64,000 nt of DNA from a virus. Its lineage: Duplodnaviria; Heunggongvirae; Uroviricota; Caudoviricetes. A program made the translations under genes and the position numbers. Where the stretch lies: the IMG/VR virus record IMGVR_UViG_3300035547_000249, one strand, 5' to 3'. Position 1 is the first letter of the stretch, and every line of letters begins with the position of its first letter. Shown piece after piece: positions 19,803 to 61,347 of the stretch. The notes under the pieces are model-generated. The model made no database searches. It worked only from the letters and a program-made list of their open reading frames with translations, and had not been told where the DNA came from.

Positions 19803-19988
19803 ATGGAATCAATTATTATAGAGGAAAAGAAAAATTTGGCAGAAGAATACATTAAGTATATTACTGAAAATGAAATAAAAGATAAAACATGGAACGACTT
19901 TTTTGAATATGCAAAGGTGCCAATGAAACATAGAACAGATTTTGCTATAGCATCTATACTTAAACAAGTAATGGAGAAAAATAAATGA
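19803..19988 (+). CDS. hypothetical protein
   Basis: ORF only. Confidence 0.4.
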   Translation: MESIIIEEKKNLAEEYIKYITENEIKDKTWNDFFEYAKVPMKHRTDFAIASILKQVMEKNK

Positions 19989-21139
19989 AATTAAGTGAAT
20001 TATATGCGTTGTTGCTGATGGTAATGTGTTTAGTAATTGCAGTGTATGCTATAATTTACTTAGTATATACTGCAATAATAGAAACCAAAGAAATAATCAA
20101 AAAAGATTGTGTGAGAGAAGATGAGAATGAGGGGGAGCTAATATCTATAATCAGAAATTTGGAAAAGACAAACGACATGAAAGTTGTTTACCTGTCTATT
20201 GTTGGTTCTAAGTTATTTGGAACTGATACTAAGGACTCGGATACTGATTACAGAGGAATTTTTATACCTTCGGTCAATTCATGTATAACAAAAACATGTG
20301 AAGACAATATAATATTTAAAACAAAGAATGACGACAGCAAAAACAACTCAGAAGATTTAGATGTACAATTATGGTCAATACAACATTTCCTTAGCTTGTT
20401 GTCTTTTGGAGATGTTAATGCTATAGATCTACTGTTTTCTTATACAAAAAAGGATGCTGTGGTTATAAATACTAAAGAATTCAATAAAATAATAGAAAAC
20501 AGAAATATTTTGTTTAATATGAAGGATGCTGCTAATTATCTTGGTTTCTCCAGACAACAAGCCATAAAATATGGTTTAAAAGGTAGAAGGTATGGCAAAA
20601 TAAAAGATGTACACAACTATGTTAAATCTCTCAATACGAAGAATGACTCCAAACTGAAAGATGTCATGTTTGATATAGTTAATAAATTCGGGGAATACCC
20701 ATTGTGTTTCATTAAAAAACAAAAAGACTATTTAAATAGAGAAAATACTTTTATAGAAATATGCGGAGTTATGCATCAGGATACAATATCTATAAAAGAA
20801 TTTCTTAATAGAATGGAACCAAAAAGAGATGGGTATGGAGAAAGAGCTAAATTAGCAGAAGTAAATGAGGGTGAAGACTATAAAGCTCTGTCACATTCTA
20901 TCAGATGTATTTATCAAGTAGAAATGTTATTTAAAACTGGAAAAATAATCTTTCCTTTACTTCAAGCAGATTATTTAAGAGACATAAAGCTTGGAAAAAT
21001 AAGTAAAGAAGATATTAACAAAGAATTCAACAGTAAAATAGACGTACTCACACACAAAGCGGCCAATATGGGCGATTATCCAGTTAATAAGGGTACAATC
21101 AATAATTTTATAATGATGTTTTACAAGGATATCACATAA
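19985..21139 (+). CDS. predicted nucleotidyltransferase (pol-beta superfamily; …YLSIVGSKLFGTDTKDSDTDYRGIFIPS…) with an N-terminal TM segment
   Basis: The GS-x-L-F/Y-G-x-D-x-D-S-D-x-D-x-R-G motif resembles the RNA-ligase-associated 'predicted nucleotidyltransferase' family; assignment from memory. Confidence 0.5.
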   Translation: MKLSELYALLLMVMCLVIAVYAIIYLVYTAIIETKEIIKKDCVREDENEGELISIIRNLEKTNDMKVVYLSIVGSKLFGTDTKDSDTDYRGIFIPSVNSCITKTCEDNIIFKTKNDDSKNNSEDLDVQLWSIQHFLSLLSFGDVNAIDLLFSYTKKDAVVINTKEFNKIIENRNILFNMKDAANYLGFSRQQAIKYGLKGRRYGKIKDVHNYVKSLNTKNDSKLKDVMFDIVNKFGEYPLCFIKKQKDYLNRENTFIEICGVMHQDTISIKEFLNRMEPKRDGYGERAKLAEVNEGEDYKALSHSIRCIYQVEMLFKTGKIIFPLLQADYLRDIKLGKISKEDINKEFNSKIDVLTHKAANMGDYPVNKGTINNFIMMFYKDIT

Positions 21140-21161
21140 CGTCGGTAGATATAGGTGATAA

Positions 21162-21482
21162 ATGCATGAATTAATTATGGGATTGATTTTTATATCAATA
21201 GCAATTATTGTGATATTGGTAGTTATATTAATAAAATACCTAAATATAGATTATATAGATTGTGCTAATCAAAGCAATAGTTTTATATATAAACACTCAA
21301 ACATAAATGATAATTATCAAGGTACATACATGTCCAAATCAAGCAGAAAAAGATCAAGAAGAAGAAGAAAAAAAGAGAAACTAGAAAAAATAAGCAAGGG
21401 TTTAGTTACAAATAATATGTTTAGAAAAATAGGCATATTAACGGAAATAGATGATAAGGAGAACACAGATGGAAAGAATTAA
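21162..21482 (+). CDS. membrane-anchored protein with a highly basic stretch (KSSRKRSRRRRKKEK)
   Basis: TM N-terminus; Arg/Lys run. Confidence 0.4.
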   Translation: MHELIMGLIFISIAIIVILVVILIKYLNIDYIDCANQSNSFIYKHSNINDNYQGTYMSKSSRKRSRRRRKKEKLEKISKGLVTNNMFRKIGILTEIDDKENTDGKN

Positions 21483-21723
21483 AATAAAAAATATCGCCGA
21501 AGTACTTTTTGAAAGTAATTATATAAGTGTGGATGAATACCATAAAATAAATGGGTTTATTAACAGAAATAGATTTAATGCTGTAATAGGGGCACTGTCT
21601 ATGATCGGAATTAAAATAAAACAGAGTAATTTTCCTATTTCAGGACCGGCCAAGCTAACAGCTGATTCCGAACTAATTGTTCCTGGAATAAACACTAAAA
21701 AATACATCAATAATATGAGATAG
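21469..21723 (+). CDS. hypothetical protein
   Basis: Start taken at ATG 21469 after AAGGAGAA. Confidence 0.4.
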   Translation: MERIKIKNIAEVLFESNYISVDEYHKINGFINRNRFNAVIGALSMIGIKIKQSNFPISGPAKLTADSELIVPGINTKKYINNMR

Positions 21724-21735
21724 GAGATAATTATT

Positions 21736-21915
21736 ATGAAAAGAAGAGCATTAACTCCAAACGTCAGTTCTAGTATACTTAAATCAGTAGAAAAAAGCAC
21801 TATGTGTAAATGTAACAGTTTAAACATAGAACTGTTTCCAATAAGCAGGTTTAGCAAACATTCTACCATTTGTCCTGTACATATAAGATATATGGAGAAA
21901 ATAAAGAAAGGTTAA
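21736..21915 (+). CDS. small Cys-containing protein (59 aa)
   Basis: Translated by eye: MKRRALTPNVSSSILKSVEKSTMCKCNSL…ICPVH…; RBS AGGAGA. Confidence 0.35.
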   Translation: MKRRALTPNVSSSILKSVEKSTMCKCNSLNIELFPISRFSKHSTICPVHIRYMEKIKKG

Positions 21916-21919
21916 TAGC

Positions 21920-22315
21920 ATGAATAAATACCTTAGAAGAATGGCAAAGACAGCTACAAAAATAAACGAAACAGAACAAGGCATAATAAAAGAAAATAAA
22001 GAAATAAAAAACGGTAGATTGCTTTACAATGATAGTTACGCTGAATCAGTTGTTATAAAAAGTCTGAACAAAGGTGTTTATGTAGTAATACATGGTAACA
22101 ACATTATTATTCCTGAAGATGATGAGCACCTGCAAAAGATTTGCAAAAACAGTAAAATAGCTACTATACACAACGTTAAATTCATACAAAAAAATAAAGT
22201 AGTGCATATAAAAAGTGTGATAGTCTCAGTGGACAACATGCTAATAGAATATGAATCTGATGATGTCATACATTTTTTCGAAGAACCAAAAACAAAATAT
22301 AACAGTATATGGTAA
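21920..22315 (+). CDS. NS[IV]W-tail protein, ends …KYNSIW
   Basis: C-terminal NSIW-TAA followed by GGAGAA and the next ATG. Confidence 0.55.
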   Translation: MNKYLRRMAKTATKINETEQGIIKENKEIKNGRLLYNDSYAESVVIKSLNKGVYVVIHGNNIIIPEDDEHLQKICKNSKIATIHNVKFIQKNKVVHIKSVIVSVDNMLIEYESDDVIHFFEEPKTKYNSIW

Positions 22316-22325
22316 GGAGAATTGT

Positions 22326-22544
22326 ATGTTGATAGCTAAAGCAGTAAAAAGTGATAGTGGTTTAAAGAAGAACAAAAAATACTATATTGGCGGAATGGTG
22401 CAAGGTAGTAGAAATCTTGTTTTAATGGATATGAAATTTAATATAGTTCCTGGAAATTTTTCAACAGAGCTGTTTGATTCTACACCTGAAGAAGTTTTAA
22501 AAGCCATAGAAGAAGGAAAGTATGAATTAAAACAAAAGGATTAA
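22326..22544 (+). CDS. hypothetical protein
   Basis: Start taken at ATG 22326 after AAGGAGAA. Confidence 0.45.
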   Translation: MLIAKAVKSDSGLKKNKKYYIGGMVQGSRNLVLMDMKFNIVPGNFSTELFDSTPEEVLKAIEEGKYELKQKD

Positions 22545-22548
22545 TATT

Positions 22549-23076
22549 ATGAATAAAGAGGAAGTTTATGTAACAAATGATTTTATTGTAGAAACTGGAA
22601 ACAAAAATGTGTATGGTTTATTTTTTAGGAGTCCGATACAAAAGGTAGTATATGAACACAATGATGTTTCAAACTATTCACCATCTTCTGCAACTAAGTG
22701 GTTGTTTTGGGCCAGAATATTAATAATTCCATACCTATTAAATTTTAAGTCTTTTAGTAATAAAAGAGATTTTATCCACAACAGAAGAAACGCAGCAGGT
22801 ATAATAGTAAATGAACTAGCTATGCCCATATATTTCAGAAGAAATATTAGATATATGGAGTGCTGCATAAATAATGAAAATATAAATATATCTAAAATAA
22901 CATCAAAAGGATACGGTAAATATAAAAGTGATGATATAGGTATGTGTCATAAAGAAATAACTAAATTACATTTCAGAAACGGAAAGACAAAAAAGATAGT
23001 AAGAAGAGAAACATATTATTTCACTTATACTCACATAATGAAAAAGGTGATAAACGACATTGATTACTATCAATAA
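22549..23076 (+). CDS. hypothetical protein
   Basis: ORF only. Confidence 0.45.
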   Translation: MNKEEVYVTNDFIVETGNKNVYGLFFRSPIQKVVYEHNDVSNYSPSSATKWLFWARILIIPYLLNFKSFSNKRDFIHNRRNAAGIIVNELAMPIYFRRNIRYMECCINNENINISKITSKGYGKYKSDDIGMCHKEITKLHFRNGKTKKIVRRETYYFTYTHIMKKVINDIDYYQ

Positions 23077-23181
23077 AAAAGAGATAAAAAAGTGGCTAAT
23101 TTCTGTAGTAGTTTTTGTATTATTGCAGTTAATTATGTTCTCTATAATTAAACCATAATAGTAAATGAGGAGATATATAAA

Positions 23182-24288
23182 GTGTACACACAAGAATTAA
23201 TAAAAGAAAAAGGCATAGAGGCTCTAAAGGATCTCGATATAATTATCAAAGAGTATAATGATAGGTTATGTCTAAAATACACACTAATGTCTCCTAAATT
23301 TAATCCTGTAGTTAAAGAATGTAGAGGATTAATATTATCCCTCCCTGATCTTAATATTATAAGCAGACCTTTCGATAAATTTTTTAATTATGGAGAAGAT
23401 CCGGACGGCCAGTCATTTTTTGATTGGGAAAATTCAATAGTGTTTGAGAAAAGAGATGGTACTCTTATACATGTCTATAATTATAAAAATAAATGGTTTG
23501 CAGGTACAACTGGCACAGCATACGCAGAAGGAAGTCCTCAGCTCACAATAGAAACTGGTAACAAAGAAACATTTTATAATTTGTTTTTAGAGGCATTGAA
23601 CCTTTCTGGTTGTGATGGTATAGACGATCTTATGGTAAATCAACCAAAAGAATTTACCTATCTTTTTGAATTAACAAGCCCAAAAAACAGAATTGTTACC
23701 AGATATGATAAGACAGAACTTAGATTATTAGCTATAAGGAATAACAGAACCGGTAAATACATTGATTATAACTTTATTGCTAAAAACGGATTCAGTGAAA
23801 TAACTGACTTTTGTCCGCTGGTAAAAATTTATGATCTAAAAAACCTTAAAGACATAGAAGAATTTATATCCTCTTTACAAAACACAGAAGAAGGTGTGGT
23901 TTGTTATGACTATATTAATCAAATGAGGATAAAAATTAAAAATCCAGAGTATGTAAAACTTCATTATTTAAGAGGTAATTCTTTAAATAGAAAGTCAGTC
24001 ATAAGCTTACTTGTTAGCGGAGAGATTGATGAGTACTTATCATATTTTCCTGAAGATATAGAAATATTGAATTCATATATCAACAGGTATAACAATATGG
24101 TTGATGAAATAATGAAAGTATATGAAAATTTAAAAGAAATAAAAAATCAAAAAGAGTTTGCAAGAGAAGCAATAAAATATAAGTTTCAAAGTGCATTATT
24201 TTCTCTCAGGAGAGGTAATACCTTGAAAGATTTTTTTAGCTACAACGAAATGAATTATGTAAGGAAACTTTTCTATGATCATTATTGA
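23182..24288 (+). CDS. rnlA: ATP-dependent RNA ligase, T4 RnlA (Rnl1)-like
   Basis: GTG start after GAGGAG. Motifs …KECRGLIL…RPFDKFFNYGEDP…EKRDGTLI… parallel T4 Rnl1 …ECRGIMFE…RPMEKFFNLNENP…TKEDGSLV…, including the KxDG adenylylation lysine. Confidence 0.7.
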   Translation: MYTQELIKEKGIEALKDLDIIIKEYNDRLCLKYTLMSPKFNPVVKECRGLILSLPDLNIISRPFDKFFNYGEDPDGQSFFDWENSIVFEKRDGTLIHVYNYKNKWFAGTTGTAYAEGSPQLTIETGNKETFYNLFLEALNLSGCDGIDDLMVNQPKEFTYLFELTSPKNRIVTRYDKTELRLLAIRNNRTGKYIDYNFIAKNGFSEITDFCPLVKIYDLKNLKDIEEFISSLQNTEEGVVCYDYINQMRIKIKNPEYVKLHYLRGNSLNRKSVISLLVSGEIDEYLSYFPEDIEILNSYINRYNNMVDEIMKVYENLKEIKNQKEFAREAIKYKFQSALFSLRRGNTLKDFFSYNEMNYVRKLFYDHY

Positions 24289-24562: not shown

Positions 24563-24572
24563 GAGAAAAGAT

Positions 24573-24806: not shown

Positions 24807-24810
24807 TAAT

Positions 24811-25053: not shown

Positions 25054-25072
25054 TTCATAGGAGACTTAAAAA

Positions 25073-25917: not shown

Positions 25918-25918
25918 T

Positions 25919-26296: not shown

Positions 26297-26300
26297 TTAA

Positions 26301-27368
26301 ATGTCTTATAACATGGCTTTGGAAACACTAAAATTATTCCACCAGTTCGAAAATGGTGAGATAGTTAAATTAATGAACGATACTTCACATCATGACGGTA
26401 TAAATTATATATCCGAAAACCACACAGAGGGCAGTGTGTGGGCTCATACTATGATGTGTTTAAACTATTTCTTAACTACCAATAAAAAGGTATATTATAA
26501 TGATGATGTGTTTATAGCCATTGTTATATCAATACTTTGTCATGACATAGGAAAAGTTTACACGAGAGAAGTAAAAGACAGCGGAAAAGTAACATTTCAT
26601 AATCATCCAGCCAACTCTATATTCAAAACAATAGATTTTATGTATTTTATAAGGAATGCTGGAATTATATCAAACTTCGATTACACTATTAATTTGGTTC
26701 TGCCGGCGGTATCAAATCATATTAATTTGTACAATGACAGCAAAAACAAACACTTATACTTTAACAATAATCAAGATCTTTATGAAGTGAGTTTACAATT
26801 AGGTATGAGTGATTCAATGGGGTCACTAAGTAAAAATAGAAAATTTAAGTTAGTAGATTATAAAGAGAAGGATAAGAAGAAAGAATATGATAGAACATGT
26901 TATGTGTTTTGTGGCCTTCCTGGAGTAGGAAAAGATTATTTGGCTGCAAAAAAAGGTCTTCTTATATTATCTTTTGATGATGAGAGGCTTGATATATATA
27001 AGAATTCATCACACTATGTAGACGGATTAAGTGAACTTGAAACTTATAGAAAAGCGCACGAATATTGTGACGAAAGAAAAATCAATTTATTAAAACTGAT
27101 AGCCAGAAGAGCTAAAGGGTGGGTTGGTAATATAGCAGTTTGCAATAAAAATCTTAGTGCTAAGGCAAGAAGATCTATTATTAACTCATTCGGAAACTAC
27201 AATTTTGAATGCATTTATGTGGTATCTGATATGGACACCATTATAGATAGAAATAATAAAAGAAAAAGTAGATCAATAGGTAAAGATATAATATTAAATA
27301 CTGCTATGAAACAAACAATTCCCTCTATAAGAGAAGGATTTGATACAATAAACATAGTAGCAAACTAA
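26301..27368 (+). CDS. HD-domain phosphohydrolase fused to a P-loop kinase (polynucleotide kinase-like)
   Basis: N-terminal …H…ILCHDIGK… (HD motif); C-terminal …CYVFCGLPGVGKDYLA… (Walker A). This is a Pnk-like domain combination found next to RNA ligases. Confidence 0.55.
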   Translation: MSYNMALETLKLFHQFENGEIVKLMNDTSHHDGINYISENHTEGSVWAHTMMCLNYFLTTNKKVYYNDDVFIAIVISILCHDIGKVYTREVKDSGKVTFHNHPANSIFKTIDFMYFIRNAGIISNFDYTINLVLPAVSNHINLYNDSKNKHLYFNNNQDLYEVSLQLGMSDSMGSLSKNRKFKLVDYKEKDKKKEYDRTCYVFCGLPGVGKDYLAAKKGLLILSFDDERLDIYKNSSHYVDGLSELETYRKAHEYCDERKINLLKLIARRAKGWVGNIAVCNKNLSAKARRSIINSFGNYNFECIYVVSDMDTIIDRNNKRKSRSIGKDIILNTAMKQTIPSIREGFDTINIVAN

Positions 27369-27381: not shown

Positions 27382-27981
27382 ATGATAGTCATAGGAGATG
27401 TACACGGGGATTATGAAGCATTAATGGATTTAATGGAAATACTTCCACAAACAGAAAAAATTTGTTTTGTAGGGGATCTAATAGATAGGGGTCCTAAATC
27501 AAAAGAAGTTTTACAGTTTGTTATGGATAATAAATTTAAGTCTGTTTTAGGAAACCACGAAGACATGATGCTTTACGATAGAAGGTTGTGGCACAGCAAT
27601 GGTGCTAGAGAAACAATAAAATCATTTGGCTCAATGGAAGAATTGCTAAAATCAAAAGCATATAAATGGGTAGAAAAATTACCTATAATGATAGAACATA
27701 AAAACTTTCTTATTACCCATAGCTATGCTTATGATGGAGAAATAACTCCTCCAATAGACATATTGTGGGGAAGAAGAATAATAAAAGATCTTCCTCCAAG
27801 TGTGACAAATATATTCGGTCATACCCCATTTAAGGAAGTTAAAAAAGTATACGACAGGCACTATTGTATTGACACTGGATCTGTTTATGGAAATAAATTG
27901 TCTGCCATAGATCTTAAAAATATGAAAATATACAGTGTTCCTGGCGGAAAATTTAGAAATGTAGGAGGACTAAGCCAATAA
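27382..27981 (+). CDS. calcineurin-like metallophosphoesterase (lambda-phosphatase/ApaH-like)
   Basis: GDVHGD…GDLIDRGP…GNHE motif triad; RBS AAGGAG. Confidence 0.7.
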   Translation: MIVIGDVHGDYEALMDLMEILPQTEKICFVGDLIDRGPKSKEVLQFVMDNKFKSVLGNHEDMMLYDRRLWHSNGARETIKSFGSMEELLKSKAYKWVEKLPIMIEHKNFLITHSYAYDGEITPPIDILWGRRIIKDLPPSVTNIFGHTPFKEVKKVYDRHYCIDTGSVYGNKLSAIDLKNMKIYSVPGGKFRNVGGLSQ

Positions 27982-28942: not shown

Positions 28943-29178
28943 AAAACTCAGTTTTATATGTATTTGTAACTTTATCCGTATTTCTGGTTATATATGTTGT
29001 TGGAGCACTAACACCAGAGCTAATAAGTGCTAAAGATACATTAACAGTGGTTATTGGATTTATTACACTGTCTGTTTTGGTGCCAATTTATATAGCTTTT
29101 GTAGTAAAAATTGTATTGGGCGTATTAAAAACAAAAAACAACAAAAAAGGAGTAGAAGAAAATGAAATTCAGAATTAA
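28936..29178 (+). CDS. small membrane protein (2 TM segments)
   Basis: Hydrophobic segments; basic C-terminus. Confidence 0.45.
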   Translation: MLKNSVLYVFVTLSVFLVIYVVGALTPELISAKDTLTVVIGFITLSVLVPIYIAFVVKIVLGVLKTKNNKKGVEENEIQN

Positions 29179-30037
29179 AAATTATGTTATGTTAGTATTG
29201 ATGATTGTAATGTTGGTAATGTCAGGTTATGGTTGTTCAAAGGTACCAGCAGGTAATGTAGGTGTAAAGGTATATCTGCTCGGAACAGAAAAAGGTGTGG
29301 ACGACACTGAAGTTCTTGAGCCAGGAAGATACTTTATTGGATGGAATAGAGATCTATTCATCTTTCCTACATTTACTCAGAACTATACATGGACAAAAAG
29401 TATTGATGAACAATCTACTACTGATGAATCAATTACATTTCAAACAATGGAAGGATTAGATGTAAATACAGATATCGGTATCACTTATAGAATTGAAAAA
29501 TCCAAAGTTACCGAGGTGTTTCAAAAATATAGAAAAGGTGTTGATGAAATTACCAGTGTTTATCTAAGAAACATGGTAAGAGATTCTTTTATCAAAGTAG
29601 GTTCAATGTATCCGGTTGAATATGTATACGGTAAAGGAAAAAATGAGCTGATTACAAAAATTACAGAAGAAACAAAGAAGCAGGTAGAAGATATTGGTAT
29701 TATTGTAGAAAAAATCTATTTGGTTGGATCTATGAGGCTACCTGGCGAAGTAATTAAAGCTCTTAATGCAAAGATTTCGGCAACACAAAAAGCCCAGCAA
29801 AGAGAAAATGAACTTAGAGAAGCAGAAGCAAATGCCAAGAAAAAAGTGGCAGAAGCTGAAGGCGAGGCTCTATCAATTATCACAAAAGCAAAAGCTCAGG
29901 CAGAGGCAAATATTTTACTGTCAAGATCAATCACTACTGAGCTAGTTCAGTATGAAGCTATCAAGAAGTGGGATGGTATTCTTCCGAAAGTCGGTTCTAC
30001 TGCAGGAATTATTCCAATGGTTGACCTCAAAGAATAA
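29162..30037 (+). CDS. SPFH/band-7 (HflK/C/prohibitin-like) domain protein with an N-terminal membrane anchor and a C-terminal coiled coil
   Basis: N-terminal hydrophobic segment; Ala/Glu/Lys-rich heptad-like stretch (…AQQRENELREAEANAKKKVAEAEGEAL…); overall architecture. Confidence 0.55.
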   Translation: MKFRIKNYVMLVLMIVMLVMSGYGCSKVPAGNVGVKVYLLGTEKGVDDTEVLEPGRYFIGWNRDLFIFPTFTQNYTWTKSIDEQSTTDESITFQTMEGLDVNTDIGITYRIEKSKVTEVFQKYRKGVDEITSVYLRNMVRDSFIKVGSMYPVEYVYGKGKNELITKITEETKKQVEDIGIIVEKIYLVGSMRLPGEVIKALNAKISATQKAQQRENELREAEANAKKKVAEAEGEALSIITKAKAQAEANILLSRSITTELVQYEAIKKWDGILPKVGSTAGIIPMVDLKE

Positions 30038-30052
30038 ATAGTTATAGTTATT

Positions 30053-30080
30053 GGCAGTGTTGTGTAAAAGCAGCACTGCC
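30053..30080 (+). other. Hairpin with a 7-bp stem (GGCAGTG…CACTGCC), intergenic; candidate terminator or processing site
   Basis: Inverted repeat read directly. It is followed by an A-rich tract and the AAGGAG RBS of the next gene. Confidence 0.35.
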
Positions 30081-30101
30081 ACAAAAATAAAAGGAGAGAT
30101 A

Positions 30102-30500
30102 ATGACAAATAAGTTTTTTGTTTATGGCACTCTGAAGGTTGGAGGAAGATTTTCTCATTATTTTAATAATGTTAGAAAAAATGTTTCAAAGGCAAAAGTA
30201 AAAGGATTTGATCTATATGAAGTAGCTAATGGATCATCTGGATTTCCTGGAATAGTAAAAGGTGATGGCACAGTAATTGGAGAGGTACATGAGTTTGGTA
30301 ATGATGTCTTAGAAGACATCGTAGATGCCATGGATCAAATAGAGGGCTGCGACCCAAGATATCCTGAAAGAGGATTATATAGAAGAGAAATTGCCAAAGT
30401 TGAATTAGAAAATGGAGAAGAAATTGATGCTAATATCTACATCTATAATGGTGTAACTTATAAAGCATCAAAAATAAAAAACGGAAACTGGGAAATATAA
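30102..30500 (+). CDS. gamma-glutamyl cyclotransferase-like (AIG2/GGCT fold) protein
   Basis: N-terminal …FFVYGTLKVGG… signature; start taken at ATG 30102 after AAGGAG. The tracked ORF begins at an upstream TTG. Confidence 0.6.
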   Translation: MTNKFFVYGTLKVGGRFSHYFNNVRKNVSKAKVKGFDLYEVANGSSGFPGIVKGDGTVIGEVHEFGNDVLEDIVDAMDQIEGCDPRYPERGLYRREIAKVELENGEEIDANIYIYNGVTYKASKIKNGNWEI

Positions 30501-30532: not shown

Positions 30533-32164
30533 ATGAAATACAACAAACACATAAATTTAAGAAGTACACCTCAAACAGAACCGATCTTAGGAAAAAATAT
30601 GAAGCCCAATAACTCTGGTGGTTATGGGTTTGAAATTACCGATAAAATGACATTGGATCGTTTTCTAATATTGGGAACCGAAGGCGGAACATACTATGTT
30701 GGAGAAAGAAAATTAACAGTTGACAGTGTAAAAAGTGTCATTAAGTTAATCAAAGAAGACGGTCAGTATGTAGTAGACAGGGTTGTAGAAATATCAAGTC
30801 AAGGAAGAGCTGCGAAGAATGGTCCTGCTTTATTCGTACTATCCTTATGTACAGCACCAAGTTTCGCAGATGTCGATACTAGGAAAAAAGCATTTGATTG
30901 CTTACCAAAAGTAGCTAGAATTCCAACCCATCTTTTCGAATTCTTAGAATATATGAAATCATTCAGGGGTTGGGGTAGAATGGCTAAAAATGGAATTCAA
31001 AACTGGTATCAAAGTAAACCTGTAAAACAATTAGAATTCCATATGGTAAAATACAGACAAAGAGACGGATGGACGCATAACGATGTCTTGAGGCTGGCCA
31101 AACCAATCCCTGTAGACATTGAGCACGATATGTTGTATGAATTCGCAAAAAAGGATAGAATTGACAGAGAAAACAACTTCAAATTAATTGAAGGTTATAT
31201 AAAAGCTAAAGAAGCCAAAACAGAAAAAGAAGTAGTTTCATTAATTAATGAATATAATATTCCGATTGAAACAATTCCTACTCAATTCAAGAACTCTAAA
31301 ATGGTATGGGAGGCAATGTTACCAAATCTTCCAATAACAGCAACTATTAGAAATCTAAAAAATATGGCTGTTTATGGATTGTTAAAACCGTTCAGTGACT
31401 CTTCTAAAATGGTAGCTGACAAAATTAGCAATAAAGAAGTCATAGAAAAAGGAAGAGTACATCCAATTCAGTTTTTGAATGCAATTATGACGTATCCTAA
31501 AGGAAGAGATAGAATTTTCCAAGGCGCGTTTGGTGCATTTGCGAACAAAAACAACAAACCATTAGAATGGGTAGTGGATAAAGATATTGTAGAAGCTTTA
31601 AACGCAGGGTTTTACCATGGATTCAGAAATGTAATTCCATCCAATAAAAGAATACTGGTTGCATTAGATGTTTCTGGTAGTATGGGATGGCAGCCGTGTT
31701 TGGGGATGAAAACAGTTAATCCAAGAGAAGCATCAGCAGCCTTGGCATTAACAACAGTGAACACGGAGCCTAATCACCTTATAGGGGTATTTACCAGAGA
31801 GTTTGAGCAATTCAATGGTATAAAGCAAGGTATGGATATAAATTCTGCTATTAAAACAATATCAAATTTAAAGTTTGGTTCAACTGACATATCATCGCCA
31901 ATTCATTGGTTAGAAAAACACAAAATAGAGGTAGATGCTATAGTGTGTTATACTGACAATGAAACTTATTGGAAACAAAGTGACCATCCGTGTCAAGCTT
32001 TAAGCAAATACAGACAAAAATTTGGCTTAAACACCAAACTGGTATCTGTATCAATGTGTGCAAATAAAACAACTGTTGCAGATCCTGAAGACCCAAATAT
32101 GTTGGATATAGTGGGTTTTGATACTGCTACACCAAAAGCCATTTCAGAATTCTTAAATATGTAG
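30533..32164 (+). CDS. rsr: Ro60/Rsr orthologue (TROVE domain + vWA domain)
   Basis: …DRFLILGTEGGTYYVGERKLT… and …GRAAKNGPALFVLSLC… parallel Ro60 TROVE motifs. C-terminal …ILVALDVSGSMGW… is a vWA MIDAS motif. RBS GGAGG. Confidence 0.75.
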   Translation: MKYNKHINLRSTPQTEPILGKNMKPNNSGGYGFEITDKMTLDRFLILGTEGGTYYVGERKLTVDSVKSVIKLIKEDGQYVVDRVVEISSQGRAAKNGPALFVLSLCTAPSFADVDTRKKAFDCLPKVARIPTHLFEFLEYMKSFRGWGRMAKNGIQNWYQSKPVKQLEFHMVKYRQRDGWTHNDVLRLAKPIPVDIEHDMLYEFAKKDRIDRENNFKLIEGYIKAKEAKTEKEVVSLINEYNIPIETIPTQFKNSKMVWEAMLPNLPITATIRNLKNMAVYGLLKPFSDSSKMVADKISNKEVIEKGRVHPIQFLNAIMTYPKGRDRIFQGAFGAFANKNNKPLEWVVDKDIVEALNAGFYHGFRNVIPSNKRILVALDVSGSMGWQPCLGMKTVNPREASAALALTTVNTEPNHLIGVFTREFEQFNGIKQGMDINSAIKTISNLKFGSTDISSPIHWLEKHKIEVDAIVCYTDNETYWKQSDHPCQALSKYRQKFGLNTKLVSVSMCANKTTVADPEDPNMLDIVGFDTATPKAISEFLNM

Positions 32165-34816: not shown

Positions 34817-34819
34817 ATT

Positions 34820-37667: not shown

Positions 37668-37680
37668 AATGGAGATTAAA

Positions 37681-38421
37681 ATGTTATATGGCTCTATCAT
37701 AAGTAACACCAAAAAAGTAAACTCTATACACATTCCTTGGATGATGGAGGTTATAGAGGAAAAATTTGACGATATAATGTCAATTATAGACAGTCGTTGT
37801 GTAATTTATGGCGGCGCCGTAAGAGACATTGTAGCTGGCAAAAAAATAATGGGTGACATAGACATACTTGTTAGAAGAGAAGATCTAAAAAGTATCACCC
37901 AAATATTCGAAAACTGTTCCAGATGGGTGAAATCCAACAAAAAGTTGGTAAATGAAGAATATGAAAGATTGGCTATTATAAATGGCACTATTTCATATGA
38001 GAACCCAAGCGGAAACATAGCGCAATTGATAATTCCTGATAATAGGTCCAATAAAATTAGGCAAAAGCTGCTAAATAAAAGCAGAAAAAATCTACCACCC
38101 TCAATAACAAATGGAAAGGATCAGTACTCAATAGGTCCGGCACAGCCAGAGTTTACAGTTATATTAGAAAATACAGACATAGTTTGCTGTGGTTTATTTT
38201 CTGATATTTTCGGTAATGTTTATGAAGTAGTTGAAGGTGCTATAGACGATTGTAAAAGCGGTATCATAAGACTAAATGAAAATTCAATTTTCTTGAAAAG
38301 CACAAGAAAGTTAGCTATTAACAGAGTTAATAAGCTTATCGAAAGAGGATGGATTTGGTCTTATGATGAAAGTATTGAAAACAAAATAGATGAAAGAATA
38401 AAGGAGAGCAACAATGGCTAA
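37681..38421 (+). CDS. pol-beta-type nucleotidyltransferase domain protein (…IYGGAVRDIVAGKKIMGDIDILV…)
   Basis: GG-x-VRD…GD-x-D motif as in CCA-adding/poly(A) polymerase heads and minimal NTases. Start taken at ATG 37681 after GGAG. Confidence 0.5.
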   Translation: MLYGSIISNTKKVNSIHIPWMMEVIEEKFDDIMSIIDSRCVIYGGAVRDIVAGKKIMGDIDILVRREDLKSITQIFENCSRWVKSNKKLVNEEYERLAIINGTISYENPSGNIAQLIIPDNRSNKIRQKLLNKSRKNLPPSITNGKDQYSIGPAQPEFTVILENTDIVCCGLFSDIFGNVYEVVEGAIDDCKSGIIRLNENSIFLKSTRKLAINRVNKLIERGWIWSYDESIENKIDERIKESNNG

Positions 38422-55897: not shown

Positions 55898-55920
55898 CAC
55901 AACAAAAAGGAAATAAAAAG

Positions 55921-57054: not shown

Positions 57055-57484
57055 AAACAACAAGTTTAACATAGCATTGGGTAGCTGTACTATAGCCAAT
57101 CAAATAGCACAGTTACTCAATCAAAACAACAAATTAAATATCATACACAGTGATAGGTCAATAATAAGTAACAACGTTAAGTATTTTGTAGAATTCAATG
57201 GTAAACAAATAATAGGTTGTGTGGGATTAATAGACTTCCATACTATTGATAAAATAGTTCATTTAAGTGTAGACAGTAAGTTTAGAAATATGGGGATAGG
57301 AAATGAATTATTAAAAACTGCTGTCAATAAATCTGATAAATTAGAATTGTTTATGCAAATAAGATCAGATAATCAAAGCAGTATGAAATTATCTATTAAA
57401 AACGGATTTATGCCCATAGCCTATATTCCAAAGAAGTTCTATAATATAATAACACTACATTTTGATAGGAGAAAAAATGTTTGA
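56996..57484 (+). CDS. GNAT-family acetyltransferase
   Basis: …IIGCVGLID… and …FRNMGIGNELL… (motif A, R/Q-x-x-G-x-G/A). The start is uncertain: the tracked ATG overlaps the upstream gene by 58 nt. Confidence 0.5.
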   Translation: MKILRLSRDLVTNSSLAANRNNKFNIALGSCTIANQIAQLLNQNNKLNIIHSDRSIISNNVKYFVEFNGKQIIGCVGLIDFHTIDKIVHLSVDSKFRNMGIGNELLKTAVNKSDKLELFMQIRSDNQSSMKLSIKNGFMPIAYIPKKFYNIITLHFDRRKNV

Positions 57485-59161: not shown

Positions 59162-59162
59162 T

Positions 59163-59960
59163 ATGAAAAAAGATTTATACGATGTAGTAGACATCAAAGA
59201 AGTAAAAAAGGACAATAATAAGTCGAATTACCCAAAACATTTGCTAGGAGAAAGTGCAAAAGAAGCACAAGAAACATTTGAAGAGTTTAAGGGTATGATT
59301 AACAATATGGTTAGATCATACTCAAAAGCGACAGGAGTTCATAGAGAAGATTTATTTAATGAATGTATTTTTGCGTTAGCAAAGGCAAAGAGGGACTATG
59401 ATAAAAGCAAAGGTAATTCATTAAAAACTTATGCCAAATATAGTATGGTAGACGCTATATGTGATTATATAAGAAAGAATGTATCACAAGTAAATATACC
59501 GTCTTATATAAATAAGGCTCATAGGTTAATTAATAGAATAAAATTTATCACCAAAAATAGAGAAGATTGGTTAGATTTTATTCTAAATAATGAAATTAAA
59601 AATGATGAATTGAATAATTGCATAAATTCTCTAAAAAATATGTCAATTAGGTGTGGTATAAGCTGCAAAGATCTGGTTGAAAGATCTGAGTTCATGCCCA
59701 CCCACTTGAATGAATGTGATGTAGACAGTATAGAATCAGATAGAAGTAATGTAATCACGAAAATACTAGTAAATGATATTCTATCTAACTTATCTGATGA
59801 GGAAAAATTAGTATCAAAAATGATCATGGAGGATATGAACTATACAGAAATGGCAAGAAAATTAAATAAATCTGATTCATATATTAAATCTAAAGTGAAC
59901 TCAATTAGGGATAAAGCAATAAAAATAATTAAAAAGGATATTGTGAATGAATTCGATTGA
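59163..59960 (+). CDS. sigma-70-family sigma factor
   Basis: Region 2-like …LKTYAKYSMVDAICDYIRKN… and region 4.2 HTH-like …YTEMARKLNKSDSYIKSKVNSIRDKAIK…. Start taken at ATG 59163 after GAGGGTAAT. Confidence 0.6.
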   Translation: MKKDLYDVVDIKEVKKDNNKSNYPKHLLGESAKEAQETFEEFKGMINNMVRSYSKATGVHREDLFNECIFALAKAKRDYDKSKGNSLKTYAKYSMVDAICDYIRKNVSQVNIPSYINKAHRLINRIKFITKNREDWLDFILNNEIKNDELNNCINSLKNMSIRCGISCKDLVERSEFMPTHLNECDVDSIESDRSNVITKILVNDILSNLSDEEKLVSKMIMEDMNYTEMARKLNKSDSYIKSKVNSIRDKAIKIIKKDIVNEFD

Positions 59961-61347
59961 GATACTGAAAAAATTAGAAAAAGACACTAAGAAAAAATAC
60001 GGAACTGAGGTTTTTATAACTGGAGGTTTTGTAAGAGATTTTCTTAGAAAAAAGAAAAATAATGATTTAGATGTTATAGTTAGGTTTATGCCTATGGACA
60101 AAGTTGAAAACTTTTTGTCTAAATATGGAAAAACCAAATCTATTAGCATACATAAAAACAATCCTATAGATATAATCATATTTCAATCTCCAACTGATGA
60201 TTTTGAAGTTCAGGTCATGCCGCCAAAAGGAAGAAAGAAAGGGCAAGACTCTGTTTTAAATACTCTAAAACAAGACAGTAAAGAAAGGGATTTTACAATA
60301 AACTCTATGTATGTTTCAGTGAACAACATATCTTACAAGAGCGTTATTGATTATTGGGGAGGAAAAGATAGTATAAAAAGTAGAATAATAATTACTGTTG
60401 GTAATCCAAACACTGTTATTAAGAAATCCCCAATAAGGATGCTAAGAGCTTTTTCTTTAGCAAGCAGAATTAGATATACTATATCTAAGGAGTTGTTTGA
60501 TTCTATAAAAAAGAATAAAGAACTCATAAGGAATTCATCGTTTGATGAAATCAGAAATGAATTTGTGGAGATTTTGTTATCTAAAGAGCCTTCCAAATAT
60601 ATAAAACTTATGCAAAAATCTGGGTTGTTGAAAATTATAATTCCAGAATTGGAAGACTGTGTAAAATGTTCCCAAGATAACAGATTTCATAAATATTCTG
60701 TGTTTAATCACTTAGTATATACATGTGATAATACAGAACCTGATGTAGTAATGAGGCTTGCTGGTCTATTTCATGATATAGGAAAGCCAGTTATAAAAGG
60801 TCACAAAGGAAACAAAATGACTTTTCATAAACATGAAGTTGTTGGAGCTAGAATTGCAGCTGTAATTATGAAAAGGCTTAGATTTAGTAATGAAATAATC
60901 TCCAAAGTCACCCACCTAATCAGAATGCATATGTATCATTACACAAGGGAGTATTCTGATGCCGGTGTTAGAAGATTTATTAATTCTTCTGGTGTCACTA
61001 AACAAGATTTGGACAATTTGAGTGAATTTCCACTATTCAAACTTAGAGTAGCAGATCGTCTTGGAAACGGTTATAAAAGTAAACCAGTAACAGCAAGACA
61101 GATTGATTTTGAAGAAAGGATAAAAAGAGTATACATTGAAAGTAATGGCCTAACGTTATCAGATCTTGCTGTTGATGGAAATGACATAATGACTACATTT
61201 TCAATTAAACCTTCAAAAAAGGTCGGCAACATACTCAAATATTTACTTGAACGTGTAATGGAAAATCCAAAACTTAATAACAGAAACGATTTATTACACT
61301 TAACGTTAGATTTGTTGGAGAAAGAAAGTGGTGATGAAAACAAATGA
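59947..61347 (+). CDS. cca: CCA-adding enzyme / tRNA nucleotidyltransferase with a C-terminal HD domain
   Basis: Head motif …VFITGGFVRDFLRKKKNNDLDVIV…; HD motif …GLFHDIGKP…. Confidence 0.7.
   Translation: MNSIEILKKLEKDTKKKYGTEVFITGGFVRDFLRKKKNNDLDVIVRFMPMDKVENFLSKYGKTKSISIHKNNPIDIIIFQSPTDDFEVQVMPPKGRKKGQDSVLNTLKQDSKERDFTINSMYVSVNNISYKSVIDYWGGKDSIKSRIIITVGNPNTVIKKSPIRMLRAFSLASRIRYTISKELFDSIKKNKELIRNSSFDEIRNEFVEILLSKEPSKYIKLMQKSGLLKIIIPELEDCVKCSQDNRFHKYSVFNHLVYTCDNTEPDVVMRLAGLFHDIGKPVIKGHKGNKMTFHKHEVVGARIAAVIMKRLRFSNEIISKVTHLIRMHMYHYTREYSDAGVRRFINSSGVTKQDLDNLSEFPLFKLRVADRLGNGYKSKPVTARQIDFEERIKRVYIESNGLTLSDLAVDGNDIMTTFSIKPSKKVGNILKYLLERVMENPKLNNRNDLLHLTLDLLEKESGDENK

What the first reader, a model, noticed from the sequence alone, without database searches (positions are those of the whole stretch)
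19985..61347. Dispersed RNA repair and surveillance toolkit: RnlA-like ligase, HD-kinase, metallophosphoesterase, two nucleotidyltransferases, CCA-adding enzyme and Ro60/Rsr
- 23182..24288 matches T4 Rnl1 motif for motif.
- 26301..27368 combines an HD phosphohydrolase with a P-loop kinase (Pnk-like end healing).
- 27382..27981 is a calcineurin-like phosphoesterase (2',3'-cyclic phosphate or 3'-phosphate removal).
- 19985..21139 is a pol-beta-type nucleotidyltransferase of the kind associated with RNA ligases, and 37681..38421 is a second pol-beta-type nucleotidyltransferase.
- 59947..61347 is a CCA-adding enzyme.
- 30533..32164 is a Ro60/Rsr TROVE-vWA protein.

From established T4 biology (RnlA + Pnk reversing PrrC anticodon-nuclease damage), this set looks like a counter-defence against host tRNA- or rRNA-targeting nucleases, for example PrrC, RloC, colicin-type tRNases, or retron/PARIS-type tRNA cleavage.

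Ro60 in bacteria normally works with a Y RNA encoded next to it. No such RNA is evident beside rsr here, so the partner RNA may be elsewhere. Candidates are the tRNA-like element at 11047 and the structured 61350-62170 region.
Basis: partly seen in the sequence, partly recalled or inferred. Interest (0 to 1): 0.65.

Follow-up and report, generated by a model that had tools for sequence, protein, structure and literature searches.

The report
Large-phage RNA repair gene kit
An uncultured large phage carries a recognisable set of genes for mending broken RNA ends and tRNA tails, a kind of kit already described in jumbo phages, but its Ro60 protein lacks the usual neighbouring Y RNA and the genome holds two unexplained tRNA-like RNAs.

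Summary
All seven ORFs exist at the stated coordinates. Five pass curated Pfam cut-offs: RlaP, T4-type Rnl1 with every catalytic residue, a lambda-phosphatase/Pnkp-type metallophosphoesterase, Ro60/Rsr with an intact MIDAS motif, and a class II tRNA nucleotidyltransferase with an HD domain. The HD-kinase is supported by invariant HD and Pnk motifs and a confident model that best matches polynucleotide kinases. The 250-aa "second nucleotidyltransferase" is supported only by its GGxVRD...DxD motif. The "CCA-adding" label is not secure, because templating motif D reads KSPIR rather than EDxxR. RlaP, Rnl1, HD-kinase, phosphoesterase, CCA-type enzyme and SPFH recur together in unrelated phages, so a heal-and-seal RNA repair kit is the best reading. 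Its counter-defence role is inferred. Such kits, including TROVE proteins, are already described in jumbo phages. No YrlA lies near rsr, and a positive control worked. Both proposed partner RNAs are real tRNA-like elements, but neither meets Y RNA criteria. The element downstream of the nucleotidyltransferase gene is a covarying RNA family with no Rfam match, and it also occurs in two relatives that appear to lack Rsr. Verdict: new member of a known kind, with unexplained RNAs attached.

The parts
19985..21139 (+). RlaP, an RNA-ligase-associated Pol-beta nucleotidyltransferase. Its N-terminal ~35 residues are hydrophobic.
   Evidence: Pfam PF10127 at 2.8e-15, above the cut-off. phrog_388 at 3e-60. 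Pol-beta motif GSKLFGTDTKDSDTD. A 32%-identical homologue lies beside Rnl1 and the HD-kinase in L092.
23182..24288 (+). T4 Rnl1-type ATP-dependent RNA ligase
   Evidence: PF09511 at 1.3e-19. phrog_562 at 1.5e-55. phmmer to T4 Rnl1 (2C5U) at 1.8e-16 with all catalytic residues aligned, including the KxDG lysine. Below the NCBIfam equivalog cut-off, 94 against 242 bits.
26301..27368 (+). HD-Pnk-type end-healing enzyme: N-terminal HD phosphohydrolase and C-terminal P-loop polynucleotide-kinase-like domain
   Evidence: AAA_33 at 3.6e-7. HDIG at 8.6e-4. Invariant H49, HD81-82, H102, H140, D171 plus GxxGxGK and SxDDxR. AlphaFold pLDDT 93.6. Foldseek top hit is mouse PNKP kinase, followed by C. thermocellum Pnk and Trl1 kinase. 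phrog_6931 'unknown function' at 4e-33.
27382..27981 (+). Binuclear metallophosphoesterase of the lambda-phosphatase / Pnkp-phosphatase clade, 14 nt downstream of the HD-kinase
   Evidence: Metallophos at 2.1e-13. Lambda phosphatase 1G5B at 2.4e-16 and C. thermocellum Pnkp phosphatase 4J6O at 8.7e-12. NCBIfam bacter_Pnkp partial hit at 1.4e-16. Motifs DVH, GDLIDRG, GNHE, GH. Metallophos is also adjacent to the HD-kinase in L255.
29162..30037 (+). SPFH/Band-7 lipoprotein, a possible scaffold member of the kit
   Evidence: PF01145 at 7.9e-22. Lipobox-like N-terminus ...MSGYGC. Band-7 homologues lie beside a CCA-type enzyme and Rnl1 in L154 and near Rsr in L239. An SPFH gene is embedded in the P. 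aeruginosa rtc locus (PMC13086221). Absent near rsr in L008 and L009.
30051..30500 (+). GGACT/AIG2-like protein, the conserved immediate upstream neighbour of rsr in this clade; its role is unknown
   Evidence: PF06094 at 4.5e-19. Found directly upstream of Rsr in the window, L008, L009 and L175 at 45-48% identity.
30533..32164 (+). Ro60/Rsr (TROVE ring plus vWA domain)
   Evidence: TROVE at 2.3e-39 and vWA_Ro60 at 1.4e-51. NCBIfam Rsr at 1.6e-132 but below the equivalog cut-off. MIDAS motif DVSGS...T451...D475 is invariant. About 40% identical to actinophage Ro-like proteins in 359 records.
37669..38421 (+). 250-aa protein with a class II nucleotidyltransferase head motif only; weak assignment, and it lies outside the repair neighbourhood
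   Evidence: PolyA_pol at 8.6e-4, below the cut-off. YGGAVRD...GDIDI is conserved in clade homologues. hhalign against the CCA-enzyme profile gives 62% probability, E = 7.5e-5, over 42 columns. The single-sequence AlphaFold model failed, pLDDT 31.
59947..61347 (+). Class II tRNA nucleotidyltransferase with a C-terminal HD domain (CCA- or CC-adding type; specificity unresolved)
   Evidence: PolyA_pol, PolyA_pol_RNAbd, HD and tRNA_NucTran2_2. Best PDB match 3WFO at 1.3e-33 over both halves. Motif A GGFVRD..DLD and motif B ERDFTIN are present, but motif D is KSPIR rather than EDxxR, with the Ser invariant in the clade.
61553..61727 (+). tRNA-like RNA 'element B': acceptor, D-arm and T-arm, with a 12-bp arm and ~90-nt variable insert where the anticodon arm should be. 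It is a member of a conserved RNA family that lies directly downstream of the nucleotidyltransferase gene.
   Evidence: Fold z-score -3.1. Homologues at the syntenic site in L005, L006, L090, L091, L095, L010, L011, L097 and L098. 94% of cells paired and 16 of 21 pairs with changes on both sides, against 40-49% paired and 4-5 pairs in slid controls. No Rfam or ARAGORN call.
11048..11252 (+). tRNA-like RNA 'element A': canonical acceptor, D-arm and T-arm, a 6-bp hairpin with an 8-nt loop, then a ~135-nt insert
   Evidence: Read from the sequence. Fold z-score -4.5. Rfam tRNA only 14 bits. ARAGORN calls it only in intron mode, as Asn(att) with a 110-nt intron. Architecturally similar elements occur in L319. 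No homologue was found for comparison.

Best explanation
The window comes from a large, uncultured, low-GC phage, with relatives on contigs up to 318 kb. It encodes a T4-like 'heal and seal' RNA repair pathway, plus tRNA 3'-end repair and an RNA-quality-control scaffold.

**Proposed mechanism**
1. A host nuclease cuts a tRNA or other RNA and leaves 2',3'-cyclic-phosphate or 3'-phosphate and 5'-OH ends.
2. The HD domain of the HD-kinase, and/or the adjacent lambda-phosphatase-type metallophosphoesterase, removes the 3'-terminal phosphate.
3. The P-loop domain phosphorylates the 5'-OH.
4. RlaP can restore a nucleotide lost at the break.
5. The Rnl1-type ligase seals the ends.
6. The class II nucleotidyltransferase with HD domain rebuilds damaged 3' termini. 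It also matures the phage's own tRNAs and tRNA-like RNAs, which do not encode CCA.
7. Rsr, and possibly the SPFH protein, act as scaffold or chaperone for damaged or misfolded RNA.

**Status of each step**
- Shown here: domain identities, catalytic residues, one confident fold, and recurrent gene association.
- Inferred: every enzymatic activity, the substrates, and the counter-defence purpose.
For: - Domain and family hits above curated cut-offs for RlaP, Rnl1, Metallophos, TROVE/vWA and PolyA_pol+HD.
- A complete T4 Rnl1 catalytic residue set.
- HD-kinase: invariant HD metal ligands plus Walker A and the SxDDxR Pnk motif, pLDDT 93.6, and polynucleotide kinases among the top structural matches.
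- The phosphoesterase is closest to lambda phosphatase and the C. thermocellum Pnkp phosphatase domain. That clade is reported to have 2',3'-cyclic phosphodiesterase activity (PMC2190708, abstract).
- Recurrent association in unrelated genomes: L092 has RlaP, Rnl1, HD-kinase, Thg1 and an aaRS. L093 has the HD-kinase and an Rnl2-type ligase. L255 has a CCA-type enzyme, NADAR, Metallophos and HD-kinase. Rnl1 lies 2-3 kb from the CCA-type enzyme in five IMG/VR phages. L154 has Band-7, a CCA-type enzyme and Rnl1.
- Closer relatives keep the HD-kinase and Rsr on one contig, judged by matching contig lengths of 20955 and 30573.
- The review PMC7824862 describes exactly this repertoire (Rnl1/Rnl2/RtcB, RlaP, kinases and phosphoesterases, CCA-adding enzyme, TROVE) as counter-defence in jumbo phages.
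Against: - No activity, expression or host data exist.
- Promoter and terminator scans are no better than shuffled sequence, so co-transcription is unknown.
- The set is not conserved as a block. Relatives with Rsr at 59-61% identity show no RlaP, Rnl1, HD-kinase or Band-7 within 10 kb.
- The phosphoesterase is equally similar to protein phosphatases and Ap4A hydrolases.
- T4 Rnl1 also has a tail-fibre attachment role (PHROG name).
- Kinase fold matches include adenylate and gluconate kinases.
- The nucleotidyltransferase lacks the canonical templating Asp.
- Rnl1, Rsr and the nucleotidyltransferase all fall below NCBIfam equivalog cut-offs.
- No Y RNA was found for Rsr.
Confidence: 0.65

Rival explanations
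1. The genes are unrelated passengers with separate roles. The nucleotidyltransferase only matures phage tRNAs that lack encoded CCA. The metallophosphoesterase is a NinI-like protein phosphatase or an Ap4A hydrolase. The HD-kinase acts on nucleotides. Rnl1 serves in tail-fibre attachment as T4 gp63 does. Rsr recruits host exonucleases to degrade host RNA for nucleotide salvage.
For: - phrog_246 'NinI-like serine-threonine phosphatase' at 1e-47 and phrog_562 'RNA ligase and tail fiber protein attachment catalyst'.
- ApaH and PrpE hits for the phosphoesterase.
- The kinase fold also matches adenylate and gluconate kinases.
- Relatives carry tRNA arrays just downstream of the nucleotidyltransferase module.
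- The genes are interspersed with many unrelated small ORFs and are not co-conserved in relatives at ~60% identity.
Against: - The same combinations recur in unrelated phages: RlaP, Rnl1 and HD-kinase in L092; Metallophos, HD-kinase and a CCA-type enzyme in L255; Band-7, a CCA-type enzyme and Rnl1 in L154.
- The HD-kinase and the phosphoesterase are separated by 14 nt.
- The kinase carries the Pnk-type SxDDxR motif.
Confidence: 0.2
2. Rsr in this lineage uses an unconventional partner RNA. The tRNA-like elements A and/or B would act as non-permuted Y RNA analogues, matured by RNase P and the phage nucleotidyltransferase, with the long arm or insert taking the place of the Rsr-binding stem.
For: - Bacterial Y RNAs carry tRNA-like domains, and M. 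smegmatis YrlA is cut by RNase P and receives CCA (PMC4201824).
- Element A has the same GCUC/GAGC D-stem and G-rich T-stem seen in phage YrlA modules.
- This clade has no YrlA next to rsr, although 21 of 80 other phage rsr loci and the control do.
- The 238-kb IMG/VR relative carries both Rsr and element B.
Against: - Neither element has the GNCGAAN0-1G motif.
- Neither matches Rfam YrlA.
- Both have the normal D-then-T order.
- They lie 19 and 29 kb from rsr, against the usual 4 kb or less.
- Element B is present in L006 (128.8-kb contig) and L091 (190-kb contig), whose contig lengths do not appear among the Rsr hits.
- Element B is linked to the nucleotidyltransferase gene, not to rsr.
Confidence: 0.1
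3. The heal-and-seal enzymes serve mainly in processing the phage's own insert-bearing tRNA-like genes. That would be protein-dependent splicing: an endonuclease cuts, the HD-kinase and phosphoesterase heal the ends, and Rnl1 ligates, as yeast Trl1 does.
For: - Insert-bearing, otherwise canonical tRNA genes occur in this clade and in other large phages: L005:12015-12140 (Rfam tRNA 51.5 bits, ~52-nt insert), the window's element A, L319, and L325-L328.
- The inserts are far smaller than bacterial tRNA group I introns, which span 184-894 nt (PMC13011429).
Against: - No splicing endonuclease was identified.
- In A, L319a and L319b the anticodon position holds a closed 5-6 bp hairpin with a 4-8 nt loop.
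- In B the position holds a continuous 9-20 bp helix with no conserved anticodon across homologues.
- ARAGORN's intron models give inconsistent anticodons.
- The repair genes are absent near rsr in relatives that still carry element B.
Confidence: 0.05

Closest known systems
Phage T4 RnlA (Rnl1) plus Pnk, which repair PrrC-cleaved tRNA-Lys
   Same: An Rnl1-type ligase with the identical catalytic residue set, and end-healing by a 5'-kinase together with a 3'-phosphoesterase.
   Different: Healing is done by an HD-domain/P-loop fusion and a separate lambda-phosphatase-type esterase, not by T4 Pnk's HAD-type phosphatase. RlaP, Rsr, SPFH and a tRNA nucleotidyltransferase are added. The target nuclease is unknown.
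Jumbo-phage RNA repair repertoires (Iyer et al. 2021, PMC7824862; Burroughs & Aravind 2016, cited there)
   Same: The same 'syntax': ATP-dependent ligase, RlaP, kinase and phosphoesterase, CCA-type enzyme, an occasional TROVE protein, and phage tRNAs.
   Different: This lineage has no DNA or RNAP-protein match in 50,697 GenBank phages. Its HD-kinase belongs to a PHROG annotated 'unknown function'. Its Rsr lacks an adjacent Y RNA.
Runella slithyformis HD-Pnk (Munir & Shuman 2017, as described in PMC6097658)
   Same: An N-terminal HD 2',3'-phosphoesterase-type domain fused to a C-terminal 5'-OH polynucleotide-kinase-type P-loop domain, in the neighbourhood of an ATP-dependent ligase.
   Different: Direct sequence homology to the Runella protein was not tested. 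Here the ligase is a T4 Rnl1 type lying 2 kb upstream, not an overlapping gene. An extra metallophosphoesterase follows the kinase.
Clostridium thermocellum Pnkp (kinase, metallophosphoesterase and ligase in one polypeptide)
   Same: The kinase fold and the lambda-phosphatase-type esterase both match Pnkp domains (4GP6/4JT2 and 4J6O).
   Different: The three activities are on separate polypeptides here. No Hen1 methyltransferase partner was seen.
Rsr-YrlA modules of bacteria and actinophages (Chen et al. 2014, PMC4201824)
   Same: A full-length TROVE plus vWA Rsr with a MIDAS motif.
   Different: There is no YrlA within 4 kb or anywhere in the 64 kb, although the same tools find one 190 nt upstream of rsr in Mycobacterium phage PurduePete and in 21 of 80 IMG/VR phage rsr loci. 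In this clade a GGACT gene occupies the upstream position.
Aquifex aeolicus CC-adding enzyme (PDB 3WFO-3WFS; identity of these entries recalled from memory)
   Same: It is the best solved match over both the nucleotidyltransferase and HD halves, at 1.3e-33.
   Different: Motif D is KRDPVR in the structure and KKSPIR in the phage enzyme. Specificity is therefore uncertain.
T4 'species 1 and 2' stable RNAs in the tRNA gene cluster (from memory)
   Same: tRNA-like, non-decoding stable RNAs of unknown function encoded next to phage tRNA genes, comparable with elements A and B.
   Different: No sequence relationship was tested. Element B is specifically linked to the nucleotidyltransferase gene.

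Membership tests
T4 Rnl1 (RnlA) RNA ligase family | Motif I KxDG with the adenylylated lysine | tested here: met
   EKRDG aligns with T4 TKEDG (K99) in the phmmer alignment to 2C5U.
T4 Rnl1 (RnlA) RNA ligase family | Other essential residues: R54, K75, F77, E159, E227/G228, K240/K242 | tested here: met
   ECRG, DKFFN, FEL, EEG and IKIK align to the T4 positions.
T4 Rnl1 (RnlA) RNA ligase family | Curated family thresholds | tested here: inconclusive
   Pfam PF09511 scores 71.4 bits against a cut-off of 28.3, which is met. NCBIfam equivalog TIGR02308 scores 94 against 242, which is not met.
T4 Rnl1 (RnlA) RNA ligase family | tRNA-specifying C-terminal domain | tested here: inconclusive
   The alignment to T4 Rnl1 ends at query residue 292 of 368. 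The NCBIfam alignment reaches residue 330.
HD-Pnk bifunctional end-healing enzymes (Runella type) | N-terminal HD domain with the full metal-ligand set | tested here: met
   H49, H81-D82, H102, H140 and D171 are invariant in 26 sequences. HDIG at 8.6e-4. Pfam HD is below its cut-off in the window protein but present in distant homologues.
HD-Pnk bifunctional end-healing enzymes (Runella type) | C-terminal P-loop polynucleotide kinase domain | tested here: met
   GLPGVGKD and SFDDER motifs. AAA_33 above its cut-off. Foldseek top hits are PNKP, C. thermocellum Pnk and Trl1 kinase, though generic NMP kinases score similarly.
HD-Pnk bifunctional end-healing enzymes (Runella type) | Overlapping or adjacent ATP-dependent ligase gene | tested here: not met
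   Rnl1 ends 2 kb upstream with several ORFs between. The association exists only at neighbourhood level, as in L092 and L093.
HD-Pnk bifunctional end-healing enzymes (Runella type) | Sequence homology to the characterised Runella protein | not tested
The reference-genome scan uses only two peptide patterns and did not return Runella.
Lambda-phosphatase / Pnkp-type binuclear metallophosphoesterase | Motifs DxH, GDxxDR, GNH[ED], GH | tested here: met
   DVH, GDLIDRG, GNHE and GH. Best PDB hits are 1G5B and 4J6O.
Lambda-phosphatase / Pnkp-type binuclear metallophosphoesterase | RNA 2',3'-cyclic phosphodiesterase or 3'-phosphatase activity | not testable with these tools
   Requires biochemistry. 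ApaH and protein-phosphatase families score comparably.
RlaP | PF10127 match, Pol-beta G[SG]...DxD motif, and linkage to an RNA ligase | tested here: met
   57 bits against a cut-off of 23. GSKLFGTDTKDSDTD. Rnl1 lies 2 kb downstream, and the two co-occur in L092.
Ro60/Rsr | TROVE ring, vWA domain and MIDAS motif | tested here: met
   PF05731 and PF25045. DVSGS, T451 and D475 are invariant. NCBIfam equivalog score is 443 against a cut-off of 900, which is not met.
Ro60/Rsr | Cognate Y RNA within about 4 kb on the same strand | tested here: not met
   No hit at E <= 10 in 28600-33000 or at E <= 5 across the window. The control phage gives YrlA at 36 bits. The signature scan is negative for the whole clade.
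YrlA-type Y RNA (as applied to elements A and B) | 5' GNCGAAN0-1G motif; permuted order T-arm, hairpin, D-arm; proximity to rsr | tested here: not met
   No motif in either element. Both have D before T. They lie 19 and 29 kb from rsr. There is no RF02553 match.
Class II CCA-adding enzyme | Motif A GGxVRD...DxD, motif B RDFT, neck/body domains and HD domain | tested here: met
   GGFVRD..DLD, ERDFTIN and HDIGK. Four Pfam domains.
Class II CCA-adding enzyme | Motif D EDxxR nucleotide template | tested here: not met
   KSPIR in the window protein, with S161 invariant in 17 clade members. It aligns to RDPVR in 3WFO. All NCBIfam equivalog cut-offs are missed.
tRNA (as applied to elements A and B) | Rfam RF00005 or ARAGORN call and a 7-nt anticodon loop | tested here: not met
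   ARAGORN finds no genes in default mode. Rfam tRNA gives 14 bits for part of A and nothing for B. The anticodon position holds a closed hairpin in A and a 12-bp helix in B.

The most novel reading that the evidence does not exclude
In this phage lineage Rsr has lost the canonical adjacent, permuted YrlA. It would instead work with non-permuted tRNA-like RNAs (element B, next to the nucleotidyltransferase gene, and/or element A). These would be matured by RNase P and by the phage's own nucleotidyltransferase with its altered motif D. Alternatively, these insert-bearing tRNA-like genes are substrates of the phage heal-and-seal enzymes, which would amount to protein-dependent tRNA splicing in a bacterial virus.
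Probability: 0.1. Interest if true: 0.8.

Novelty: new member of a known kind. Interest (0 to 1): 0.4.

Why it matters
The gene kit itself adds another, very divergent, lineage to the known pattern of large phages carrying RNA repair genes against translation-targeting host defences.

It also gives a functional annotation, HD-Pnk-type end healing, to a PHROG family currently labelled 'unknown function'.

The more useful leads are side products:
- A Ro60 orthologue clade with no recognisable Y RNA. This makes the question of what phage Rsr binds directly testable.
- A covarying tRNA-like RNA family, with no Rfam match, fixed next to a tRNA nucleotidyltransferase whose templating motif is altered.
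- Recurrent non-decoding, insert-bearing tRNA-like genes in large phages.

Tried and rejected
- **Close relatives in GenBank phages.** Megablast of 19985-32200 and tblastn of the 1092-aa RNAP-like ORF both returned nothing.
- **Rfam on the window.** Searches at gathering and permissive thresholds gave only chance snoRNA-type hits.
- **Y RNA under the small ORF after rsr (32174-32371).** Rejected. The ORF has its own RBS and no Rfam hit, and the equivalent ORFs in L008 and L009 are unrelated proteins.
- **The 412-aa unannotated protein in L008 as a divergent ligase.** Rejected (BLASTP E = 0.34).
- **Group I intron explanation for the inserts.** Rejected on size and the lack of a model match.
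- **tmRNA reading of A and B.** ARAGORN makes no tmRNA call and there is no G3:U70 pair.
- **Decoding tRNA with an intron for B.** Rejected, because the would-be anticodon nucleotides differ among syntenic homologues and are base-paired.
- **Structure prediction of the 250-aa protein from a single sequence.** Failed, pLDDT 31.
- **Metagenome scan with the CCA-enzyme alignment.** It mostly returned bacterial enzymes at ~30% identity.
- **Searches for homologues of element A.** A pattern scan and a scan with the radical-SAM neighbour both found nothing.
- **Aldolase-anchored loci.** These showed the toolkit is not linked to that gene outside this lineage.
- **Promoter/terminator scans and the repeated GGAGGGT motif.** Not above chance.
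- **Test against Runella HD-Pnk.** The reference-genome scan did not recover Runella.

Full report
**Context**

The window is about 32% G+C with nearly every ORF on the + strand. It encodes:
- a 1092-aa RNAP-like protein that combines an Rpb2 domain-6 match with an NLDFDGD motif;
- a sigma-70 region-2 protein, a RuvB-like ATPase and an SF2 helicase;
- four radical-SAM ORFs;
- many COOH-NH2 ligase, glutamine-amidotransferase, ATP-grasp and GNAT genes.

It has no nucleotide match, and the RNAP-like protein has no tblastn match, in 50,697 GenBank phage records. The same phage occurs in several metagenome assemblies. Relatives with syntenic gene order lie on contigs of 129-318 kb. This is therefore a lineage of large uncultured phages.

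**The proteins**

Pfam confirms RlaP, RNA_lig_T4_1, Metallophos, TROVE with vWA_Ro60, and PolyA_pol with PolyA_pol_RNAbd, HD and tRNA_NucTran2_2, all above gathering scores. AAA_33 passes for the HD-kinase. PHROGs agree.

*Ligase.* It aligns to T4 Rnl1 (2C5U, 1.8e-16) with R54, K75/F77, the K99 of KxDG, E159, E227/G228 and K240/K242 all conserved.

*HD-kinase.* It has no PDB sequence match. Across 26 homologues, however, H49, H81-D82, H102, H140 and D171 are invariant, as are the GxxGxGK and SxDDxR motifs. The AlphaFold model is confident (pLDDT 93.6). Its kinase half matches mammalian PNKP first, then C. thermocellum Pnk and fungal Trl1 kinase. Generic NMP kinases score alongside these. This is the architecture described for Runella HD-Pnk (PMC6097658).

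*Phosphoesterase.* It starts 14 nt after the HD-kinase and carries the full metallophosphoesterase motif set. It is closest to lambda phosphatase and the Pnkp phosphatase domain.

*Rsr.* It has an intact MIDAS motif.

*RlaP.* It has the Pol-beta motif.

*Two calls are weaker.* The 250-aa protein shares only the GGxVRD...DxD head motif with class II nucleotidyltransferases, and its structure prediction failed. The 'CCA-adding enzyme' is clearly a class II tRNA nucleotidyltransferase with an HD domain. Its best solved match is 3WFO (1.3e-33), which I recall to be the Aquifex CC-adding enzyme. Its templating motif D is KSPIR rather than EDxxR, with the Ser invariant across the clade. Specificity is therefore open.

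**Is it a system?**

Only 19985-32164 forms a neighbourhood: RlaP, Rnl1, HD-kinase, phosphoesterase, an SPFH/Band-7 lipoprotein, GGACT and Rsr.

Conservation falls off with distance:
- Close relatives keep the HD-kinase and Rsr on the same contigs, judged by matching contig lengths.
- Relatives with Rsr at 56-61% identity keep GGACT immediately upstream of Rsr.
- The two relatives with 10-kb flanks (L008 and L009) also keep a phosphoesterase downstream, but show no RlaP, Rnl1, HD-kinase or Band-7 within 10 kb.

The 250-aa protein belongs to a conserved amidoligase block. The nucleotidyltransferase belongs to a conserved module of sigma, nucleotidyltransferase, tRNA-like RNA and tRNA array.

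The same genes do recur together in unrelated genomes:
- L092 has RlaP, Rnl1 and the HD-kinase within about 11 kb, beside Thg1 and an aaRS.
- L093 has the HD-kinase and an Rnl2-type ligase.
- L255 has a CCA-type enzyme, NADAR, Metallophos and the HD-kinase within 5 kb.
- Five IMG/VR phages have Rnl1 2-3 kb from their CCA-type enzyme.
- L154 has Band-7, a CCA-type enzyme and Rnl1.

An SPFH gene also sits in the P. aeruginosa rtc locus. This pattern is what the jumbo-phage review describes as RNA repair counter-defence. The mechanism is therefore well supported by homology and association. The biological purpose remains inferred, and the finding is a new member of a known kind.

**The Y RNA question**

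No Rfam family matches near rsr or anywhere in the window. The absence is meaningful, for two reasons:
- The same search finds YrlA 190 nt upstream of rsr in Mycobacterium phage PurduePete.
- A simple signature scan (T-arm, hairpin, D-arm) finds such modules 100-900 nt upstream of rsr in 21 of 80 IMG/VR phage rsr loci, but in none of this clade.

*Element A (11048-11252).* It has a perfect 7-bp acceptor and canonical D- and T-arms. A closed 6-bp hairpin with an 8-nt loop sits where the anticodon arm should be, followed by a ~135-nt insert. I found no homologue to compare it with. Architecturally similar elements exist in another large phage, L319.

*Element B (61553-61727).* It belongs to an RNA family found directly downstream of the nucleotidyltransferase gene in nine related loci. 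The family has a conserved D-loop (AUACCAGG), covarying acceptor, T-stem and basal-arm helices, and a long arm carrying a variable insert. Of the cells, 94% are paired, and 16 of 21 pairs change on both sides, against 40-49% paired and 4-5 pairs in slid controls. One caveat applies: my finder required pairing, and I chose one helix by hand.

Neither element has the GNCGAAN0-1G motif, the permuted order or the proximity that define YrlA. Element B also occurs on two long contigs with no Rsr among the hits. It is therefore tied to the nucleotidyltransferase, not to Rsr. The inserts are too small to be group I introns, and no consistent anticodon can be reconstructed.

**Verdict**

The kit is ordinary for a jumbo-type phage. 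The unexplained parts are the Rsr that lacks a Y RNA, the altered nucleotidyltransferase, and the tRNA-like RNAs.

Noticed in passing
window 2676-9433, 21920-22315, 24275-25053: At least a dozen small ORFs of 80-175 aa end in the same C-terminal motif...(I/F/L)NS(I/V)W followed by stop. They look like a multi-copy paralogous family and have no Pfam match.
   Followed up: no
window 1752-2213: An array of 20 tandem copies of a 23-nt unit (TAGTATTAATCTATACAGTATCA, 83% matches) lies inside a ~1.5-kb non-coding stretch that also holds repeated TATATTATATTATACTCTACT motifs. It could be an origin, an iteron array or a promoter array.
   Followed up: partly
window 42689-45967: A 1092-aa ORF combines an RNA polymerase Rpb2 domain-6 match with a beta'-type NLDFDGD motif, suggesting a fused or minimal multisubunit-type RNAP. 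It has no tblastn match in 50,697 GenBank phages.
   Followed up: partly
window 35620-37465, 38769-39425, 48805-57484, 62509-63261: A very dense set of peptide-bond-forming and -modifying genes: three to four phiEco32-like COOH-NH2 ligases, Peptidase_C26 and GATase genes, ATP-grasp/RimK-like genes, a GNAT, and the GGACT next to rsr.
   Followed up: no
window 11268-14951: Four consecutive radical-SAM / 4Fe-4S ORFs lie immediately downstream of tRNA-like element A.
   Followed up: no
window 61742-61772; L005 ~6017-6047: A hairpin just after element B has a conserved loop (CGGTCATCC), and its stem changes by compensatory substitutions between the window and L005 (GAGGAATA... against GAGGGGCGG...).
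   Followed up: no
window 61906-61935; L006 8170-8195: A non-coding motif, ACGAGTGGG(T)AGGTKGGTGGGAAA, is shared with relatives whose nucleotidyltransferase is only 57% identical. It is followed by a GTGCCG...CGGCAC hairpin and could be a promoter or an RNA element.
   Followed up: partly
L005:12015-12140; L319:18257-18381 and 18654-18840; L325-L328:1704-1826: Otherwise canonical tRNA genes carrying inserts of 40-110 nt recur in other large phages. ARAGORN misses them in default mode, and the inserts are too small for group I introns.
   Followed up: partly
L005:10598-10672: ARAGORN reports a tRNA with a four-base anticodon (tccg) in the tRNA array of the closest relative. It may be a quadruplet-decoding or aberrant tRNA.
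   Followed up: no
window 19985-20090: The RlaP ORF begins with a strongly hydrophobic, transmembrane-like segment (LLLMVMCLVIAVYAIIYLVYTAII) upstream of the Pfam-matched region. Either this is a membrane-anchored RlaP or the true start codon lies further downstream.
   Followed up: no
window 18519-19544: A 341-aa protein with a class II aldolase-like C-terminal domain is conserved at 40-50% identity in 25 IMG/VR phage contigs of up to 554 kb. It appears to be a marker gene of a wide group of huge phages.
   Followed up: partly
L091:6824-6905; L011:5744-5827; L095:4895-4976; L097:5286-5372; L006 ~7886-8012: In several relatives a second tRNA-like element of 82-127 nt, with a G/C-rich acceptor such as AGGAGGT/ACCTCCC, follows element B. 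The window has no equivalent.
   Followed up: no
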